Source: an uncultured Bacilli bacterium
Lineage (GTDB): Bacteria; Bacillota_I; Bacilli_A; RF39; UBA660
Length of the DNA: 64,000 nucleotides
Assembly (NCBI GenBank): GCA_944350445.1
Contig: CALVOW010000005.1
Span: 997 to 64,996, forward strand
Direction of reading: 5' to 3'
Shown in pieces: positions 1 to 56,650 of the stretch (position 1 is its first letter; each line of letters starts with the position of its first letter). A model generated the notes under the pieces. The model did not search any database. It saw only the letters and a program-made list of their open reading frames with translations, and was not told the origin of the DNA. The position numbers and the translations under genes were made by a program.

Positions 1-137
1 CTATTGTTATATTACATAAATTAATGCCTTATAAAGTAACGCTTATTCCAGATTATAAAATAAAATGGGAAAATGATTATAAAGATAGCAAATTGTTAGA
101 AAGAGAATTACCAGAAATTAAATTTTTTTCTAATTAA
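1..137 (+). CDS. 3' end of an unidentified protein-coding gene that starts upstream of the window
   Basis: An open frame enters from the left edge and ends at TAA 135-137 (..KLMPYKVTLIPDYKIKWENDYKDSKLLERELPEIKFFSN*). No family recognised. Confidence 0.3.
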   Translation, partial: IVILHKLMPYKVTLIPDYKIKWENDYKDSKLLERELPEIKFFSN

Positions 138-23507: not shown

Positions 23508-24436
23508 GTTTTAATACCATTTAAAATGTCATAGAACTAAAACTTATACTCTACATTATCAGTATAAATCTCTGTTTTAATACCATTTAAAATGTCATAG
23601 AACTAAAACTCAATTGTCGACAGTTTGGAGGTGATAAACGTTTTAATACCATTTAAAATGTCATAGAACTAAAACCGAAATTAATAATATCAAAAAAACC
23701 AGTGGTATATCGGAAACAAGTCCGAATCGACCTACTGGTTTTTCTGAAAATAATATACCACAATCTAGCAATAATGTCAAATCGGATACATCTACTAAGT
23801 ATTCTATGCAAGAAATTCAAGATAATACACTGTTAAATAATTCTAAATCAAACCAACAACCACAAAATTCCACAAAGTCTAAACATACTGATTATATAAA
23901 TAGTGAAGTAAATTATTTAGCTGATCAAATAGATAACATAAATAATAATGATAAAGTGACATTTGAAGATATAGATGAAATTGTTTACAATTCTCCATAT
24001 TATAAGTTTTAATACCATTTAAAATGTCATAGAACTAAAACTATTAATTTCCTCCTTTTAAATCATAAATGGTTTTAATACCATTTAAAATGTCATAGAA
24101 CTAAAACCTGGTAGCCATTTTCAACTTTTACTATTTGTTTTAATACCATTTAAAATGTCATAGAACTAAAACACTATTAAAGATCCATTTTATAATCAAA
24201 CAGTTTTAATACCATTTAAAATGTCATAGAACTAAAACAACTAAAATGTCATTTCCAATGAAGTTATAGTTTTAATACCATTTAAAATGTCATAGAACTA
24301 AAACATAATCTAAAATGGACTATTGACATATAACGTTTTAATACCATTTAAAATGTCATAGAACTAAAACAAATTATTATAATAACCAAGAACACTTTCT
24401 GTTTTAATACCATTTAAAATGTCATAGAACTAAAAC
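23508..24436 (-). CRISPR. CRISPR array, leader-distal segment: 10 identical 36-bp repeats
   Basis: Repeats start at 23508, 23574, 23640, 24006, 24072, 24137, 24203, 24269, 24335 and 24401. The repeat in transcription sense is GTTTTAGTTCTATGACATTTTAAATGGTATTAAAAC. Spacers are 29-30 nt, except for one 330-nt segment. Confidence 0.95.
23676..24005 (+). other. Oversized (330-nt) inter-repeat segment: internal fragment of a foreign coding sequence
   Basis: Bounded by perfect repeats (23640-23675 and 24006-24041). One plus-strand frame is open across the whole segment (EINNIKKTSGISETSPNRPTGFSENNIPQSSNNVKSD..NYLADQIDNINNNDKVTFEDIDEIVYNSPYYK). Confidence 0.8.
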
Positions 24437-24611
24437 TTAAATCCTCTTTACTTGGTAAGTTTCTAGTCTTTCTAGCTACTTCTTTTTTTAAAGCTTCATT
24501 AAATTCTTCTTGAGTAGCGAAAGCTTTTTCCACTTTTTCTTCTGTAGTCTGTGTTTCTACATTTTCAGTTACTTTTTCTTCTGTAACATTTTGAACATTT
24601 TCTTGTTCCAT
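24437..24611 (-). pseudogene. 5' fragment of a phage scaffold-like gene, truncated by a CRISPR repeat
   Basis: RBS gaagggag is followed by ATG 24611. The acidic N-terminus MEQENVQNVTEEKVTENVETQTTEEKVEKAFATQEEFNEALKKEVARKTR resembles Firmicute phage scaffold proteins. The last residues of the tracked ORF are encoded by the repeat. Confidence 0.5.
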
Positions 24612-24675
24612 AAATTCTCCCTTCTTTTAAGTCATTAAGTTGGACTTAACCATTCTTTATTGTCTTTATGTTGGA

Positions 24676-24893
24676 CATAATAAAAGAACGTATTTCTACG
24701 TCCTGAAGTGCGTTTATAAGCACTGTACTGACGATAGAATGCCGTTTATTCCCACTTACCCTACTCTGTGTTATCAGCTGGTTCACATTTTGCCTTATCT
24801 AGTGGGTTTAGTTGAATAGAATACGTCTATTCCTGTGCCTCGCGTCATCAGTACACTACTTATAAATATAAAGTAGCGCATAATAAAAGAGCA
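24676..24893 (-). ncRNA. Unclassified structured element, copy B (between the small ORF and the scaffold gene)
   Basis: Minus strand. The ORF terminator (aagagca..tgctctt + ttattat) comes first, then hairpin gcgctactt-N9-aagtagtgt (24853-24879). A closing helix joins gtactga..cg with cgtcagtac. Internal hairpins are gaataga/tctattc, cccact/agtggg and agtgc/gcact. A GAAA-capped terminator ggacgta-gaaa-tacgttc + ttttattat closes it, then the RBS of the scaffold gene about 60 nt later. Confidence 0.45.
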
Positions 24894-25091
24894 TTATTTT
24901 GCTCTTAATTTCATTTCTTTTATATCTTTAATATAAATATTATAATTACCTACATATATTGAAGAATCATCTTCATCTTCGTCAAAAAAAATACCAGTTA
25001 TTTTTTCTCCACTATTTAAAATCACTTCAACTTCTTTTTGAAAGCAATTTAAATACCTTTGTGCAAATTCTTTATTTGTCATTATCATCAC
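24894..25091 (-). CDS. Small phage ORF (65 aa) downstream of the MuF-type gene; candidate immunity protein
   Basis: Overlaps the MuF-like stop by 20 nt. Acidic 65-aa product MMIMTNKEFAQRYLNCFQKEVEVILNSGEKITGIFFDEDEDDSSIYVGNYNIYIKDIKEMKLRAK. The assignment rests on position only. Confidence 0.4.
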   Translation of the reverse strand: MMIMTNKEFAQRYLNCFQKEVEVILNSGEKITGIFFDEDEDDSSIYVGNYNIYIKDIKEMKLRAK

Positions 25092-25899
25092 CTCTTATGT
25101 TTTTAAACTGTGCATTGTTGCTTGCTGGCACAATATGAACACCATTTTTTTCAGAATAATGAATTACAAATGAATTAGTTTCTTCTTCAACATTATAATT
25201 TTTATTAATATAAACTCCAATCACTTTATTTGTACTACATATTTCTTTATTTTGAATATTGCCTTTTATAGTTAATGGTGTGTATCCCTTTGTTGCATAT
25301 TCATTTACCAGTTTTTGTTCTTCTTTTATATCAATATTGAAATAACTCTTTCCTTGAATATATTTTTCACTATTTATATTGTGTTTCAGTTGCTTATCTT
25401 CATTTATCTTTATCAAATTTGGATTTTCTTTAATTTTATTATTTCGTAAAAGCAATTGTTTATATCCATTTAATGCTACTTCATCTGTAACATTATTATA
25501 CACCTTTTTTGCTTCTTTTAGCAAGTTTTCTTTTTTTTCTTTTTTATTTTTCCAATTTTGATAAGTTTTAGTACTTTTTTCTTTAACTTTAGGACTTAAC
25601 TCAGTGCTGCCAATCCATTCATTAGCAGTAATTCTAGTTCTACCAGTCTTATCTAAGAAACTTAAATATTCTTTTTTAGTGTTACTTAAACTATTTTGTT
25701 TTATTTTTATATAAGTAGGCTCTGCTCCGGTTTGTTTAAGCATTGCTATTTCTCTTTTTTTGTTGCGAATAGCTCTTTCGTATTGACGTTGTCTTTGTTT
25801 TTCTACATAAGCCTCATCATTTTCTTTTTTTGTAAAGTCCATTTCTCTTTTTTTTGATAAACCAGGAACAAACATATATCTTGAATGACCACAATTAAT
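25072..25899 (-). pseudogene. Exon 2 of a phage MuF/SPP1-gp7-type minor capsid gene with a C-terminal toxin-like extension (exon 1 absent)
   Basis: Starts INCGHSRYMFVPGLS (NC(R/G)H motif at the end of the MuF domain). YVEKQRQRQYERAIRNKKRE is typical of Firmicute minor capsid proteins. The tail ..NSFVIHYSEKNGVHIVPA is like MuF-fused nuclease/toxin modules. The tracked Met at 25902 is an artefact of the intron end. Confidence 0.6.
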
Positions 25900-26199
25900 C
25901 ATTTCTTGTTAGCTTATATTTCTATAAGTGTCGGACTATATCTTCCTCTAATAGAGGCATCGCATTTCAAATAACGTATCAATAGTTATCTTACATGGCT
26001 AAACTCATCACCATTAGTCTCTACACCTTTTTATAAATATTTCCACACATAACCATAAGCTGTTTTTCGATAAGTATGTCCTTTCAAAACCTTTACTATA
26101 ATGGAACTTGCGTTTAAAGATTTTGTCATGTTGTTTTTTATTAACCATCTTTCGGCTTCTCTAATTCCATTAAATTCCATTACTAATTTATTGTTTTTA
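25900..26199 (-). mobile_element. 3' portion of a group I intron (subgroup IA-like) carrying a homing endonuclease remnant, truncated by a CRISPR repeat
   Basis: Minus strand. P7 5' strand ggtgtagagac, then two hairpins (atgg..ccat and ataac..gttat, P7.1/P7.2-like). P8 is cctct-atta-gagg, with J8/7-like aagatatagtc and P7 3' strand cgacac. P9 is cttata-gaaa-tataag, with terminal G at 25900. The boundary is independently confirmed by spacer 27028-27057. Confidence 0.75.
26031..26198 (-). pseudogene. C-terminal 55 codons of an intron-encoded homing endonuclease (NUMOD/HTH-type DNA-binding tail)
   Basis: The frame is open from the repeat boundary: KNNKLVMEFNGIREAERWLIKNNMTKSLNASSIIVKVLKGHTYRKTAYGYVWKYL*. 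The pattern ..EA...L......I..VL.G...TA.GY.W.Y is the usual C-terminus of phage GIY-YIG/HNH homing endonucleases. Confidence 0.55.
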
Positions 26200-28215
26200 G
26201 TTTTAATACCATTTAAAATGTCATAGAACTAAAACATTTCTTTTTTGCTTTTTCCATTTTTATTTGTTTTAATACCATTTAAAATGTCATAGAACTAAAA
26301 CGCATTTGCAACTACTGATTTGTTTTCTGCAGTTTTAATACCATTTAAAATGTCATAGAACTAAAACTTTACTCTACCTACAACACCATTTCTAGCAGTT
26401 TTAATACCATTTAAAATGTCATAGAACTAAAACTACACAATAACACAATAACGCCAAAAGCAAGTTTTAATACCATTTAAAATGTCATAGAACTAAAACC
26501 ATAAGTTGTAATATCTATAAATTCATCTGGTTTTAATACCATTTAAAATGTCATAGAACTAAAACATTTCTTTTTTGCTTTTTCCATTTTTATTTGTTTT
26601 AATACCATTTAAAATGTCATAGAACTAAAACGCATTTGCAACTACTGATTTGTTTTCTGCAGTTTTAATACCATTTAAAATGTCATAGAACTAAAACACT
26701 GACTTATGCTATACTATATTTGTAATTGTTTTAATACCATTTAAAATGTCATAGAACTAAAACCGACAACTTTAATCTTCCAAAACTTCAATTGTTTTAA
26801 TACCATTTAAAATGTCATAGAACTAAAACTAACACCTATGTATTGATAAAACATTTCAGGTTTTAATACCATTTAAAATGTCATAGAACTAAAACCTACG
26901 ACGCGGTTGGCTTCTCGCTTGAGGAGTTTTAATACCATTTAAAATGTCATAGAACTAAAACCTAGTAAATGTTTAACCCCCTTGATATCTTGTTTTAATA
27001 CCATTTAAAATGTCATAGAACTAAAACGAATATTTGGTATTAATTGTGGTCATTCAAGTTTTAATACCATTTAAAATGTCATAGAACTAAAACACATCTA
27101 CATAACTAAACCCTTGTGGCGTAGTTTTAATACCATTTAAAATGTCATAGAACTAAAACCATTGCACTTATTTTATGACTAATATAGGAGTTTTAATACC
27201 ATTTAAAATGTCATAGAACTAAAACATAATTACATTTTCTAATTTCGATAGGTAAGTTTTAATACCATTTAAAATGTCATAGAACTAAAACAGAATATGA
27301 ATTTTACGAAATCAATTATATGTTTTAATACCATTTAAAATGTCATAGAACTAAAACAGGTGTTAAGACTGCTACAGAGGTAGTATCGTTTTAATACCAT
27401 TTAAAATGTCATAGAACTAAAACAGTGTAATGATGTATGAAAAATTACCTTTTGTTTTAATACCATTTAAAATGTCATAGAACTAAAACATTAATATAAG
27501 CGTCACTATTCCAAGAACAGTTTTAATACCATTTAAAATGTCATAGAACTAAAACTAAGTAGCTTTTAATGAAGATTTAACTTCTGTTTTAATACCATTT
27601 AAAATGTCATAGAACTAAAACTGATTAGCTATTGTTCCTAATGGCGGAGGTGTTTTAATACCATTTAAAATGTCATAGAACTAAAACATCATACATGATC
27701 ACATATTCATCGGGATGGTTTTAATACCATTTAAAATGTCATAGAACTAAAACTATTAGACAATTATATTGTCTCACATATTAGTTTTAATACCATTTAA
27801 AATGTCATAGAACTAAAACAAACATACTTAATTCTTTCTATAACCTTTTGTTTTAATACCATTTAAAATGTCATAGAACTAAAACATATCAATCATTTTA
27901 CTACTATCTTCGGGTGTTTTAATACCATTTAAAATGTCATAGAACTAAAACAATAGAATTGGAGTTTATTGTGTCAATGCAGTTTTAATACCATTTAAAA
28001 TGTCATAGAACTAAAACTCTTTGTTTACTAGCTTATATGTAATTCCGGTTTTAATACCATTTAAAATGTCATAGAACTAAAACGCGACTACTAATCAATC
28101 GACGACTACTAATGTTTTAATACCATTTAAAATGTCATAGAACTAAAACTTATAATCTCTAATTTGAAGCGAATAGCTCGTTTTAATACCATTTAAAATG
28201 TCATAGAACTAAAAC
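26200..28215 (-). CRISPR. CRISPR array, leader-proximal segment: 31 identical 36-bp repeats and 30 spacers of exactly 30 nt
   Basis: Repeats start at 26200 + 66k for k = 0..30. The sequence is the same as in segment 1. It is transcribed from the leader at 28216-28296 toward lower coordinates. Confidence 0.97.
26530..26661 (-). repeat. Duplicated repeat-spacer-repeat-spacer block (identical to 26200-26331)
   Basis: Spacers atttcttttttgctttttccatttttattt and gcatttgcaactactgatttgttttctgca each occur twice (26236/26566 and 26302/26632). Confidence 0.9.
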
Positions 28216-55620: not shown

Positions 55621-56423
55621 GTGAAAGGCTCGTCTGTCTGCCCCTCACAGAACCCATCGTGCCCTATTAAGGCAATAGGCTCTTCATATAAATCTTTTGA
55701 TTTAACCTATATTAACTTTAATTCGTGGAATAGGCATTGAAAATCTTGCCCATATTCTATTAAATATTTCATATGTCATACTTTTCTTTTGATGTCTTCT
55801 ATTTAGTATTCTATATGTACTCCATTTAACATATATATAATTGAAGTTTCTTATACTTTATAGATTGACTTCTTATATCTCCTCTTTCTTTTTCCATTTC
55901 TTTTTACCTCCATGTGTAATTAATGTTTCTATTAGAGAAACGATTTATATGCTAGTCCCTTCGCTCCAGAGTCATTACTTCCTTCACCACTACTATGAAC
56001 TAGTCCGACTACTTATAAGTCTTTTACCTAACTTAGTTTTCAATACCTTGCTTTGGTATACCCCTTACTATTGGCAATTTTAAACCTTTTAGACTTGAGG
56101 AACTTATAAGTTCTCCCAGGTATGCTTAATATACCTTGTGAACTCGCCGAGTTCTTAGACCCCGATGGAATTTATAATATCTCGCATTAACGATATTACA
56201 AATGTTGCTTGCTGTAGAAAGGAGTACATAAGCTTCCATATTTATTGTTTTAATAACGAGGCTCAATCACTTCACGCTTTCGCATTTCGGCTCGAACACT
56301 TTCTTGTCTACGCTTAAACCTAATCTCACGACTTTGGCTCCAAGACTAGATACTGGCTCTTTGCTAGAGATTACCAGATTAGGAGTTTCACCCAATTATA
56401 TATTAAGCACCAAACTGGCGCAC
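55621..56423 (-). mobile_element. ORF-less group II intron (Ll.LtrB/IIA-like by motif resemblance) in the valS 5' leader
   Basis: The minus strand starts GTGCGCCAGTTTGGTGCTTAA. Domain I strings are GGGTGAAACTCC and GCCGAAATGCGAAAGCGTGAAG. A J2/3-D3-like CATAGTAGTGGTGAAGGAAGTAATG is present. The D4 RBS GGAGGTAAAAAGAAATG is followed by only a 23-codon ORF. Domain V is GAGCCTATTGCCTTAATAGGGCACGATGGGTTC (55650-55682). D6 ends ..GCCTTTCAC at 55621. Confidence 0.75.
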
Positions 56424-56427
56424 CCTT

Positions 56428-56650
56428 CAAAAATAAAAAAAGACCAAGTCCAAAGGACGAAGTCTTCGTGGTACCACCTTATTTTGTAATAAAATTACCT
56501 TAAAATCTTAATGCGATTAACATTATATCTTACTAAACTCAGATATAATTCTCCAAAGCTACCTTCTGTTAGATTCTTTATTAGTTTCCACCAACCACTA
56601 ACTCTCTGAAAAGTTATCTAACATACTCCTCTTCTTCAACGAATTTAGTT
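56428..56650 (-). promoter_or_regulatory. T-box riboswitch leader, probable Val specifier (GUA), for valS
   Basis: Minus strand. Stem I motifs are cagagagt .. ggttggtggaaac. The specifier context gaagGTAgcttt parallels the Ala leader. T-box sequence aaggtggtaccacg (56468-56481). Terminator gacttcgtcc-tttg-ggacttggtc followed by tttttttattttt (56428-56441). Confidence 0.75.

What the first reader, a model, noticed from the sequence alone, without database searches (positions are those of the whole stretch)
25900..26199. Group I intron with a homing-endonuclease remnant preserved inside a CRISPR array
The 3' 131 nt (26030-25900, minus strand) carry a recognisable group I core: a P7 5' strand, two extra hairpins as in subgroup IA, P8, J8/7 aagatatagtc (nearly the Tetrahymena/T4-type string), a P7 3' strand, GAAA-capped P9 and a terminal G. 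Upstream lies the last 55 codons of an ORF with the typical homing-endonuclease DNA-binding tail (..TAYGYVWKYL*). The CRISPR repeat cuts through this ORF.

The intron interrupts the most conserved motif of the MuF domain (..G|INCGHS), the kind of site homing endonucleases favour. Homing-endonuclease cuts also create free DNA ends, which is the substrate type II-A adaptation is known to prefer.
Basis: partly seen in the sequence, partly recalled or inferred. Interest (0 to 1): 0.6.

Follow-up and report, generated by a model that had tools for sequence, protein, structure and literature searches.

The report
Phage intron fossil inside CRISPR array
The 300 bases are a dead piece of a phage self-splicing (group I) intron and of its homing-endonuclease gene. 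They were carried into a bacterial CRISPR array as the first part of a 1.8-kb slab of phage DNA. The intron itself is ordinary; the unusual thing is where it was preserved.

Summary
On the minus strand, window 26198-26034 holds the last 55 codons of an I-TevI-type GIY-YIG homing endonuclease. Window 26030-25900 holds the 3' 131 nt of a group I intron, ending in the terminal G at 25900.

- **Full-length relative.** A metagenome contig (L060, 94% identical) carries the whole element: MuF exon 1 ending ..GILG, a 960-nt intron with a 209-aa GIY-YIG ORF, then exon 2 starting INCGHS.
- **Covariance model.** Rfam's model sees the window piece only in truncated mode (25 bits, E 7e-5), as expected for half a ribozyme.
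- **Covariation.** It supports P8, P9 and two extra helices.
- **State of the copy.** It lacks P1-P6, exon 1 and the nuclease domain, so it is inert.

The piece is the leader-side end of a 1763-nt phage fragment that sits in a spacer slot. The same junction, 100% identical, occurs in two other assemblies whose arrays differ, so it is inherited and not a misassembly.

The fragment starts exactly 30 nt before a TGG PAM. It ends where related phages have AGG. This points to spacer-protospacer recombination (inferred) or mis-trimmed acquisition.

The intron is a new member of a known kind. Its interest is moderate and comes mainly from the context.

The parts
26200..26235 (-). CRISPR repeat on the leader side of the long insert. 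It is intact, with all 36 nt.
   Evidence: (CRISPR-DR22, 30.5 bits)
26170..26199 (-). First 30 nt of the insert ('S1'). It is protospacer-like and is followed at 26169-26167 by TGG (an NGG PAM). It lies inside the endonuclease ORF.
   Evidence: (PAM NGG from spacer matches)
26034..26198 (-). Last 55 codons of a GIY-YIG (I-TevI-like) homing endonuclease (stop at 26031-26033). The catalytic domain is missing.
   Evidence: (P0002, 209 aa, 95% identical over the tail, PF01541)
25900..26030 (-). 3' 131 nt of a group I intron: J6/7-P7, two extra helices, P8, J8/7, P7', P9(GAAA), terminal G at 25900.
25075..25899 (-). MuF / minor capsid protein 2 exon 2 (INCGHS...), with a C-terminal Ntox50 toxin domain.
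   Evidence: (PF06152 55 bits, PF15542 79 bits)
24437..26199 (-). Whole 1763-nt phage fragment occupying one spacer slot. In order: endonuclease tail, intron 3' part, MuF exon 2, a 66-aa ORF, an intergenic element with terminator-like hairpins, and the first 58 codons of the scaffold gene.
24437..24466 (-). Last 30 nt of the insert ('S2'). Related phages have AGG (2 of 4) or AAG directly after this point.
24401..24436 (-). CRISPR repeat on the trailer side of the insert. It is intact.
27028..27057 (-). Spacer 17. It matches the uninterrupted (intron-less) exon 1/exon 2 junction of the same MuF gene, antisense. Its 19 exon-2 bases are identical to the insert's exon 2.

Best explanation
Window 25900-26199 (minus strand) is a non-functional remnant of a mobile group I intron from a siphophage.

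**What the intron is in the phage.** It sits in the MuF / minor-capsid-protein-2 gene, between the codons for ..GILG and INCGH... It carries an I-TevI-type GIY-YIG homing endonuclease in a loop upstream of P7.

**What survives here.** Only the last 55 codons of the endonuclease (most of its small C-terminal subdomain, with a beta-strand/helix-helix layout) and the ribozyme's 3' 131 nt survive. Missing are P1-P6, the internal guide, exon 1 and the nuclease domain. The remnant can therefore neither splice nor home. It is passive cargo.

**Where it sits.** It is the leader-proximal end of a 1763-nt fragment of an intron-containing phage genome. That fragment lies exactly where a 30-nt spacer should be in a chromosomal type II-A array, and it is inherited in a lineage of strains.

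**How it arrived (inferred).** The most likely route, about 55%, starts from two ordinary spacers, S1 in the endonuclease gene and S2 in the scaffold gene. These recombined with their protospacers in an infecting phage, by double crossover or gap repair. The phage DNA between them was copied into the array. The endonuclease played no part.

**Shown:** identity, truncation, junctions and inheritance. **Inferred:** the recombination route. The confidence given is for the identity and the passive-cargo reading, not for the route.
For: **Identity of the endonuclease tail**
- Twelve longer relatives end in the same tail (E 1.8e-26 to 2.6e-6), and ten of them carry PF01541 GIY-YIG. The closest full-length one, P0002 (209 aa), is 95% identical over the tail.
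- P0002 matches the I-TevI catalytic domain by sequence (1LN0/1MK0, E 5e-7). It also matches by predicted fold (TM 0.78 to 1MK0).

**Full-length intron allele**
- L060 reads exon 1 ..GILG(ggt) | 960-nt intron holding the 209-aa ORF | attaat.. INCGHS. It is 94.4% identical to the window piece.
- By eye, exon 1 TACTCGGT pairs with GCCGAGTA 35 nt into the intron, with U.G at the splice site. In L070 the exon/guide pair covaries (ATTCGGT/GCCGAAT).
- More distant phages (L069, L070) have the same insertion site, with a homologous 3' core.
- Nine related MuF genes are uninterrupted across the site.

**RNA evidence**
- RF00028 truncated hit: 25 bits, E 6.8e-5. It is the only such signal in the genome.
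- In 13 homologous 3' halves, 92% of cells pair, and 19 of 27 pairs show compensatory changes. None of 500 shuffles reaches the observed covariation score or percentage paired, and slid controls give 31-41% paired.
- P7 is invariant.
- ORF-less members of the same core family give full-length RF00028 matches of 40-42 bits, E 1e-10.

**Real and inherited**
- Contigs from two other samples (L067, L068) carry the same repeat-insert junction, with 493/493 and 1003/1003 identical insert bases. Their leader-side spacer sets differ.

**Route of entry**
- The PAM is NGG for 4 of 6 spacers that have phage matches.
- NGG sits at +31..33 of the insert start (TGG). It also sits directly after the insert's end in 2 of 4 phage homologues (AGG).
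- A related array (L020) has a 4654-nt phage insert that starts 30 nt before TGG. That insert ends where 4 of 4 homologues have TGG.
- The DNA after the last repeat also starts with 30 nt followed by CGG.
- GG occurs at about 3.5% of positions on this strand.
Against: - The Rfam score is below the gathering cut-off, and the piece was invisible to the standard scans.
- The 5' half of L060 scores only 8.9 bits, E 6.6. I could not assign P3 with confidence.
- The window's own 55-aa tail hits no Pfam family.
- For the route of entry, no array with S1 or S2 as ordinary spacers was found. Two JGI metagenome scans gave 0 hits.
- The second long insert (330 nt, 24005-23676) has TCT, not NGG, at +31..33.
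- The AGG after S2 is seen in only 2 of 4 homologues. The true donor phage is unknown.
- A 30-bp homology is a poor recombination substrate.
Confidence: 0.88

Rival explanations
1. Mis-trimmed acquisition. The Cas1-Cas2(-Csn2-Cas9) machinery integrated one long 1763-bp prespacer in a single step. One end was measured 30 nt upstream of a PAM and the other was cut at another PAM. The intron remnant has the same identity under this reading; only the route of entry differs.
For: - Both flanking repeats are complete and the junctions are exact, as integration would give.
- The trailer-side end abuts a PAM position in related phages, like a normal spacer.
- No ancestral array with S1 or S2 as ordinary spacers was found.
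- The 330-nt insert lacks a PAM at +31..33. Some route that does not depend on PAMs must therefore also exist in this lineage.
Against: - To my knowledge, no known ruler mechanism places the far end exactly 30 nt upstream of a second PAM.
- The DNA after the last repeat starts with 30 nt followed by CGG but has no repeat at its far end. Integration would have created one.
- The same start and end geometry recurs in an independent array.
Confidence: 0.25
2. A homing-endonuclease double-strand break in phage DNA created the free end from which the type II-A system captured this DNA.
For: From knowledge, not tested here: type II-A adaptation prefers free DNA ends, and GIY-YIG homing endonucleases make double-strand breaks near intron insertion sites. 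Spacer 17 shows that intron-less alleles of this gene circulated.
Against: - The captured DNA carries the intron, so it is the allele that is not cut.
- The expected cut site (exon 1, near the insertion site) is not in the fragment.
- The boundary is about 300 nt from the insertion site, inside the endonuclease ORF, and is placed 30 nt before TGG.
- The related array's insert starts in an intron-less MuF gene with the same PAM geometry.
Confidence: 0.05
3. Assembly chimera. A de Bruijn-graph assembler jumped from a spacer into a co-occurring phage genome at the matching protospacer and jumped back at a second one. On this reading no such DNA molecule exists.
For: - The genome is a 46-contig draft.
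- Junctions at spacer-sized, PAM-flanked sites are also what a k-mer jump would produce.
Against: - The same junction, with identical insert sequence, is present in contigs from two other samples.
- The arrays of those two contigs differ from each other and from the window in their leader-side spacers. This is the pattern of diverged sister strains.
- A 30-nt overlap is shorter than the final k of common assemblers (my knowledge).
Confidence: 0.04
4. Not an intron. The region is ordinary intergenic DNA after a free-standing endonuclease gene that lies between two separately translated capsid genes.
For: - Bacillus phage records annotate the two MuF halves as separate genes.
- The Rfam score is below the cut-off.
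Against: - Removing the 960 nt in L060 joins ..GILG to INCGHS in frame and recreates the motif that nine uninterrupted homologues have.
- Read unspliced, exon 1 runs into a stop after 11 codons.
- Covariation supports four helices.
- Family members give full-length RF00028 matches at E 1e-10.
Confidence: 0.02

Closest known systems
Phage T4 td intron with I-TevI (group IA intron encoding a GIY-YIG homing endonuclease)
   Same: - A self-splicing group I intron in a conserved phage gene.
- The endonuclease ORF is looped out upstream of P7.
- The N-terminal domain of the full-length relative matches the I-TevI catalytic domain.
- There are extra helices between P7 and P8, as in subgroup IA.
   Different: - The host gene is a virion protein (MuF / minor capsid protein 2), not a nucleotide-metabolism gene.
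- The window holds only the 3' half of the ribozyme and the last quarter of the ORF.
- No sequence match was found between the tail and the I-TevI DNA-binding domain.
Split minor head protein genes of Bacillus phages 250 and vB_BceS_LY4 (Cecivirus), with an intervening 308-aa GIY-YIG 'homing endonuclease'
   Same: - The same gene family is interrupted.
- A GIY-YIG endonuclease is present with a similar ..TAYGYRWK tail.
- The 3' core is similar (GUAGAGACUA..., GAUAUAGUC).
- In LY4, RF00028 gives a weak hit (21.5 bits).
   Different: - The insertion site is 46 codons further upstream (GAR|P instead of G|INC).
- The tails are only about 40% identical.
- These are intact elements in phage genomes, not remnants.
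Prophage PhiAP1.1 integration into type II-A CRISPR repeats of Streptococcus pyogenes (bioRxiv 10.1101/2020.10.09.333658)
   Same: - Kilobases of phage DNA lie inside a type II-A array.
- The likely effect on crRNAs downstream of the insertion is similar. Here the insert has terminator-like hairpins on the transcribed strand.
   Different: - There, a whole prophage integrates by site-specific recombination inside a repeat (8-bp attB).
- Here, a 1.8-kb gene fragment without an integrase sits between two intact repeats, exactly in a spacer slot, with protospacer-like ends.
Spacer-protospacer recombination that makes phage/CRISPR hybrid molecules in staphylococci (Varble et al. 2019, cited from memory; the title is quoted in papers found)
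   Same: Homologous recombination between a 30-nt spacer and its phage target is the proposed step.
   Different: - That work describes CRISPR DNA carried into phage particles.
- Here the proposed product is the reverse: phage DNA fixed in the chromosomal array, needing two crossovers.
- This is inferred, not shown.

Membership tests
Group I intron (Rfam RF00028) | P7 pairing, the J8/7 consensus and a terminal G at the 3' splice site | tested here: met
   GACUA/UAGUC and AAGAUAUAGUC are present. The G at 25900 is followed by exon 2, as in L060, L061, L069 and L070.
Group I intron (Rfam RF00028) | Covariance-model score at or above the gathering cut-off (50 bits) | tested here: not met
   25.0 bits in truncated mode and 24.9 bits in the genome search. 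There was no hit in the standard scans. This is expected for a half molecule.
Group I intron (Rfam RF00028) | Helices supported by compensatory changes among homologues | tested here: met
   P8, P9 and two extra helices: 19 of 27 pairs have changes on both sides. None of 500 shuffles reaches the observed covariation score or percentage paired. P7 is invariant, so it is uninformative.
Group I intron (Rfam RF00028) | Complete catalytic core (P1-P2, P3-P8, P4-P6) with an internal guide that pairs with exon 1 | tested here: not met
   This part is absent from the window, because the array repeat replaces everything upstream of 26199. In the full-length relative L060, P1/guide pairing is seen by eye. 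P4-P6 scores only weakly (8.9 bits). P3 is not assigned.
Group I intron (Rfam RF00028) | Removal restores the reading frame of a gene that is uninterrupted in relatives | tested here: met
   L060, L069 and L070 compared with nine uninterrupted MuF genes.
Group I intron (Rfam RF00028) | Self-splicing with guanosine | not testable with these tools
   This needs in vitro transcription of a full-length relative.
GIY-YIG homing endonuclease (PF01541, I-TevI type) | GIY-YIG catalytic domain | tested here: not met
   The window has only residues 155-209 of the 209. The domain is present in P0002 (37.4 bits against a cut-off of 22.6; 1MK0 TM 0.78).
GIY-YIG homing endonuclease (PF01541, I-TevI type) | C-terminal DNA-binding module (NUMOD1 / helix-turn-helix) | tested here: inconclusive
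   The window's tail has no Pfam hit. Four homologues hit NUMOD1 below the cut-off (12.6-18.5 bits against 22.8). The model shows strand-strand-helix-helix-strand. The tail has no significant PDB match.
Canonical type II-A spacer | About 30 nt between two repeats, taken from just upstream of an NGG PAM | tested here: not met
   The length is 1763 nt. The repeats are intact, and only the ends show PAM geometry.
MuF / Phage_min_cap2 polymorphic toxin (PF06152 plus a C-terminal toxin) | C-terminal part of PF06152 followed by a toxin domain | tested here: met
   PF06152 scores 55.1 bits (profile positions 273-365 of 366) and Ntox50 scores 79.4 bits in exon 2.

The most novel reading that the evidence does not exclude
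The array is a layered record of an arms race over one phage site.

- It holds DNA captured from the intron-containing allele. On the leader (younger) side it also holds spacer 17 against the intron-less junction.
- The intron separates that spacer's 11 PAM-proximal bases from the other 19.
- On this reading, mobile group I introns in conserved phage genes act as shields that break CRISPR protospacers. Hosts answer by targeting, and even physically capturing, the intron and its endonuclease gene.
- The position of the intron, about 160 codons upstream of the variable toxin domain of MuF, could also let homing co-convert toxin/immunity cassettes between phages.
Probability: 0.15. Interest if true: 0.75.

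Novelty: new member of a known kind. Interest (0 to 1): 0.4.

Why it matters
**For intron biology**
- It adds a recurrent homing site. The YG.PAGILG|INCGH block of MuF / minor capsid protein 2 is occupied in several phage lineages.
- The endonuclease gene lies on either strand in those lineages.
- This intron family is largely missed by Rfam's cut-off.

**For CRISPR biology**
- The remnant is a datable marker. It proves that the 1.8-kb block came from an intron-bearing phage genome as DNA.
- It shows that the block's edge was set by protospacer geometry and not by the homing endonuclease.
- It shows that intron-plus and intron-minus alleles of one phage gene met the same host lineage.
- This makes the question of how kilobase fragments enter arrays testable.

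Tried and rejected
- **Standard Rfam scans.** The whole window at gathering threshold, and 24400-26260 at E<=10, found no group I intron. Only a scan cut to the remnant, so that truncated alignment was allowed, did.
- **Rfam on full-length relatives.** With the ORF in place it found nothing. The 5' half alone scored 8.9 bits.
- **blastn against 50,697 phage records.** It found only a 79-nt core match in Staphylococcus Sextaecvirus phages. No close donor phage is in that collection.
- **Eight IMG/VR relatives of exon 2.** All have intron-less MuF genes.
- **Pfam and PHROGs on the 55-aa tail.** Nothing usable.
- **Two JGI metagenome scans.** One looked for the array state before the insert and one for S1 as an ordinary spacer. 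Both gave 0 hits, so the two entry routes could not be separated.
- **P3 assignment.** I tried to assign it by eye from L060 and L070. The candidate pairings were in different registers, so I do not claim it.
- **Prophage integration into repeats.** Rejected, because both repeats are whole.
- **A functional or trans-splicing intron.** Rejected, because the genome has no 5' half.
- **Fold search of the endonuclease model.** It matched only the catalytic domain significantly. The I-HmuI match covering the tail region had E about 1.

Full report
**Setting**

The window carries a chromosomal type II-A CRISPR locus on the minus strand: cas9 34267-30140, cas1 30150-29281 and csn2 28974-28297. The array that follows has 41 identical 36-nt repeats from 28215 down to 23508, and the spacers are 30 nt long. 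Read on the minus strand, the repeat has the usual GTTTTAG...AAAAC form. Two spacer slots are oversized: 26199-24437 (1763 nt) and 24005-23676 (330 nt). The finding covers the first 300 nt of the 1763-nt block, counted from the leader side.

**Check of the observation**

All of this is on the minus strand.
- Repeat 26235-26200 runs straight into an open frame of 55 codons (26198-26034) that ends ..RKTAYGYVWKYL, with its stop at 26033-26031.
- The next 131 nt (26030-25900) contain GACUA, two hairpin-forming stretches, CCUCU...AGAGG, AAGAUAUAGUC, a GAAA-capped hairpin and a final G.
- From 25899 an ORF reads INCGHSRYMFVPG... It matches the C-terminal end of Pfam Phage_min_cap2 (55 bits) and then Ntox50 (79 bits).

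**Is it a group I intron?**

- Standard Rfam scans saw nothing here.
- When the scan was cut to 25896-26036, so that Infernal could align a truncated molecule, RF00028 matched model positions 127-253 at 25.0 bits, E 6.8e-5.
- A whole-genome search gave this as the only RF00028 signal in 1.34 Mb: 24.9 bits, E 1.6e-4.
- The 79-nt core is about 80% identical to a segment in Staphylococcus Sextaecvirus phages.
- A degenerate 31-nt pattern from the core found 32 IMG/VR loci.
- An alignment of 13 distinct 3' halves gave a consensus with P7 (invariant), a 5-bp helix directly after P7, a second hairpin, P8 and P9.
- In that alignment 92% of cells pair, and 19 of 27 pairs show changes on both sides. 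None of 500 shuffles reaches the observed covariation score or percentage paired, and sliding the partners drops pairing to 31-41%.
- ORF-less members of this core family give full-length RF00028 matches at 40.6 and 42 bits, E about 1e-10, at exactly the core positions.

**Full-length relatives**

A search for longer proteins ending in the 55-aa tail found thirteen hits. One of these (P0001) is only a gene call that reads through the array itself. Ten of the other twelve carry PF01541 GIY-YIG.

The closest full-length protein, P0002 (209 aa), is 95% identical over the tail. It lies on contig L060.
- L060 reads MuF exon 1 ...YGEPAGILG (last codon ggt). An intron of 960 nt follows, with the GIY-YIG ORF at 273-902, and then attaattgc... 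= INCGHS.
- The window piece is 94.4% identical to L060 over 340 nt.
- By eye, exon 1 TACTCGGT pairs with GCCGAGTA 35 nt into the intron, with U.G at the splice site. This is the P1/internal-guide arrangement.
- If unspliced, exon 1 hits a stop after 11 codons.

Two more distant phage contigs (L069, L070) have MuF split at the same point (..GLFG | (I/V)NCGH) with a homologous 3' core. There the guide covaries with the exon (ATTCGGT/GCCGAAT), and the GIY-YIG gene lies on the opposite strand.

Nine related MuF genes, including one in a prophage of this same genome, are uninterrupted. The block W..(S/T)YG.(P/A).GI(L/F)G(I/V)NC.H is the best-conserved stretch in that region. Bacillus phages 250 and LY4 also have a MuF intron with a GIY-YIG gene and a similar tail, but it sits 46 codons upstream.

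**The endonuclease**

P0002 matches the I-TevI catalytic domain by sequence (E 5e-7). It also matches by predicted fold (mean pLDDT 84.5; TM 0.78 to 1MK0). The window keeps only residues 155-209, a strand-helix-helix-strand unit. Pfam gives nothing for the window's tail. Four homologous tails hit NUMOD1 below its cut-off.

**State of the copy**

Everything upstream of codon 155 of the endonuclease is replaced by the CRISPR repeat. That includes the nuclease domain, P1-P6, the guide sequence and exon 1. No second copy exists in the genome. The remnant cannot fold into a ribozyme, splice or home.

**Is the junction real?**

A gene call that reads through the repeats, spacers 28-29 and the tail (P0001) led to two contigs from other samples (L067 from ERZ28616110, L068 from ERZ28657050).
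- Both contain the same repeat-insert junction, with 493/493 and 1003/1003 identical insert bases.
- Both share the trailer-ward spacers, including the duplicated pair 23/24 = 28/29.
- They differ from the window and from each other in other spacers.

This is the pattern of sister strains with a shared old part of the array. The insert is therefore inherited, and an assembly artefact is very unlikely.

**How it got there**

- Spacer matches to related phages give an NGG PAM: TGG, TGG, CGG and TGG for the spacers with the best matches.
- The insert's first 30 nt are followed by TGG.
- Its last 30 nt are followed, in the two closest phage homologues, by AGG (AAG in two others).
- A related array on an IMG/VR contig (L020, a repeat variant) has a 4654-nt phage insert between intact repeats. 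It begins in an intron-less MuF gene 30 nt before TGG. It ends where four of four homologues have TGG.
- The DNA after the window's last, perfect repeat also starts with 30 nt followed by CGG.
- GG occupies about 3.5% of positions on this strand, so five of six tested junctions is far beyond chance. The exception is the 330-nt insert (TCT).

This geometry is what two same-sense spacers would leave after recombining with their protospacers. The leading spacer keeps its PAM inside the insert. The trailing one stays next to a repeat and can still give a crRNA without self-targeting. I rate this route at about 55% and a one-step integration of an untrimmed fragment at about 25%. I could not separate them, because scans for the ancestral array state found nothing.

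The captured DNA is the intron-containing allele. From established knowledge of homing, its own endonuclease does not cut that allele. I-TevI-type enzymes cut in exon 1 of intron-less DNA, which is not in the fragment. The boundary lies about 300 nt from the insertion site, at a PAM-defined distance. The related array's insert starts in an intron-less gene with the same geometry. The endonuclease-end idea is therefore not supported.

**Comparison and novelty**

Group I introns with GIY-YIG endonucleases in phage genes are textbook (T4 td/I-TevI; reviewed in PMC3984707). Split MuF genes with such an endonuclease are already annotated in Bacillus phages. This is a new member at a new, recurrent site, and the copy here is a fossil.

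Phage DNA inside type II-A arrays is known for prophages that integrate into repeats (bioRxiv 10.1101/2020.10.09.333658). That case differs: here the repeats are whole, there is no integrase, and the insert is a gene fragment in a spacer slot.

Earlier notes of this scan had already flagged the 1763-nt block, the NGG positions and spacer 17 on this same window. My checks agree with them. I add the full-length intron allele, the trailer-side PAMs, the second array and the sister-strain evidence.

**Verdict**

- The intron is ordinary, and the preservation context is the interesting part.

Noticed in passing
window 27028-27057: Spacer 17 equals the uninterrupted exon 1/exon 2 junction of the MuF gene (antisense). 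Its 19 exon-2 bases are identical to the insert's exon 2. The intron would separate its 11 PAM-proximal bases from the rest. It lies leader-ward of (younger than) the insert. In the imperfect homologues the flank is CAG or CTG, not NGG.
   Followed up: partly
L020 3946-8600 (IMGVR_UViG_3300029782_000304): A related type II-A array, filed as 'viral', holds a 4654-nt phage fragment between intact repeats, running from MuF residue about 268 to beyond the capsid genes. It starts 30 nt before TGG and ends where 4 of 4 phage homologues have TGG. Its MuF gene has no intron.
   Followed up: partly
window 23507 down to about 23050, minus strand: The last repeat (23543-23508) is perfect. The DNA after it starts with 30 nt followed by CGG. 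It encodes the C-terminal end of another MuF toxin variant (..YIILNRGIILVKE), a 79-aa ORF and a 63-nt element that is also found in the 1763-nt insert and in phages.
   Followed up: partly
window 25902-25072 and 25094-24897, minus strand: The intron's last three bases (AUG) open a 276-codon ORF that covers exon 2 with its intact Ntox50 toxin domain. An intact 66-aa ORF follows, possibly the immunity protein. Both are 100% conserved in the sister-strain contig that reaches them. A toxin/immunity pair could help keep the block in the array.
   Followed up: no
window 24906-24887 and 24704-24685, minus strand: Two terminator-like hairpins lie on the strand on which the array is transcribed (3 found against 0.4 expected). 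crRNAs from the ten spacers trailer-ward of the insert may be poorly made.
   Followed up: no
window 26236-26331 and 26566-26661: Spacers 23/24 are repeated as 28/29 (a 330-bp direct duplication inside the array). One sister-strain contig (L067) has the same duplication, so it is old and real. Spacer 23/28 matches the phage scaffold gene in the sense orientation, with TGG after it.
   Followed up: partly
L061-L066 (six contigs from several samples): The same endonuclease tail, cut to 105 aa, lies with the intron 3' part and a MuF exon 2 that carries a different toxin (PBECR2). They sit downstream of an unrelated 409-aa ORF and a terminator, with no exon 1. This is an 'orphan exon 2' arrangement outside any CRISPR array. 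It may be a toxin cassette or another recombination product.
   Followed up: no
L069 2393-3031 and L070 2339-2992: In two phage contigs the GIY-YIG gene inside the MuF intron is encoded on the strand opposite to MuF. In L060 and the window it is on the same strand.
   Followed up: partly
L029 and other IMG/VR loci, L028-L059: The intron family defined by the 3' core is mostly missed by RF00028 at its gathering score. In the eleven of these loci that were scanned (L020 was scanned in the same call), the only group I hit (L029) is a different, neighbouring intron. This suggests many unannotated phage introns.
   Followed up: partly
window 56150-56648, minus strand: A group II intron D1-D4 domain (RF02005, 146.6 bits) lies directly downstream of a T-box leader (RF00230, 131.3 bits).
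   Followed up: no
L002 1502-1761 (Staphylococcus phage PMBT8): The split lysin gene of PMBT8 contains a full group I intron (RF00028, 101 bits) that is not annotated in the record.
   Followed up: no
L061 2365-2421: A skipping-rope RNA match (RF02924, 30.3 bits, cut by the contig end) lies just after the MuF/toxin gene of a related phage contig. No such hit was found in the window's insert.
   Followed up: no
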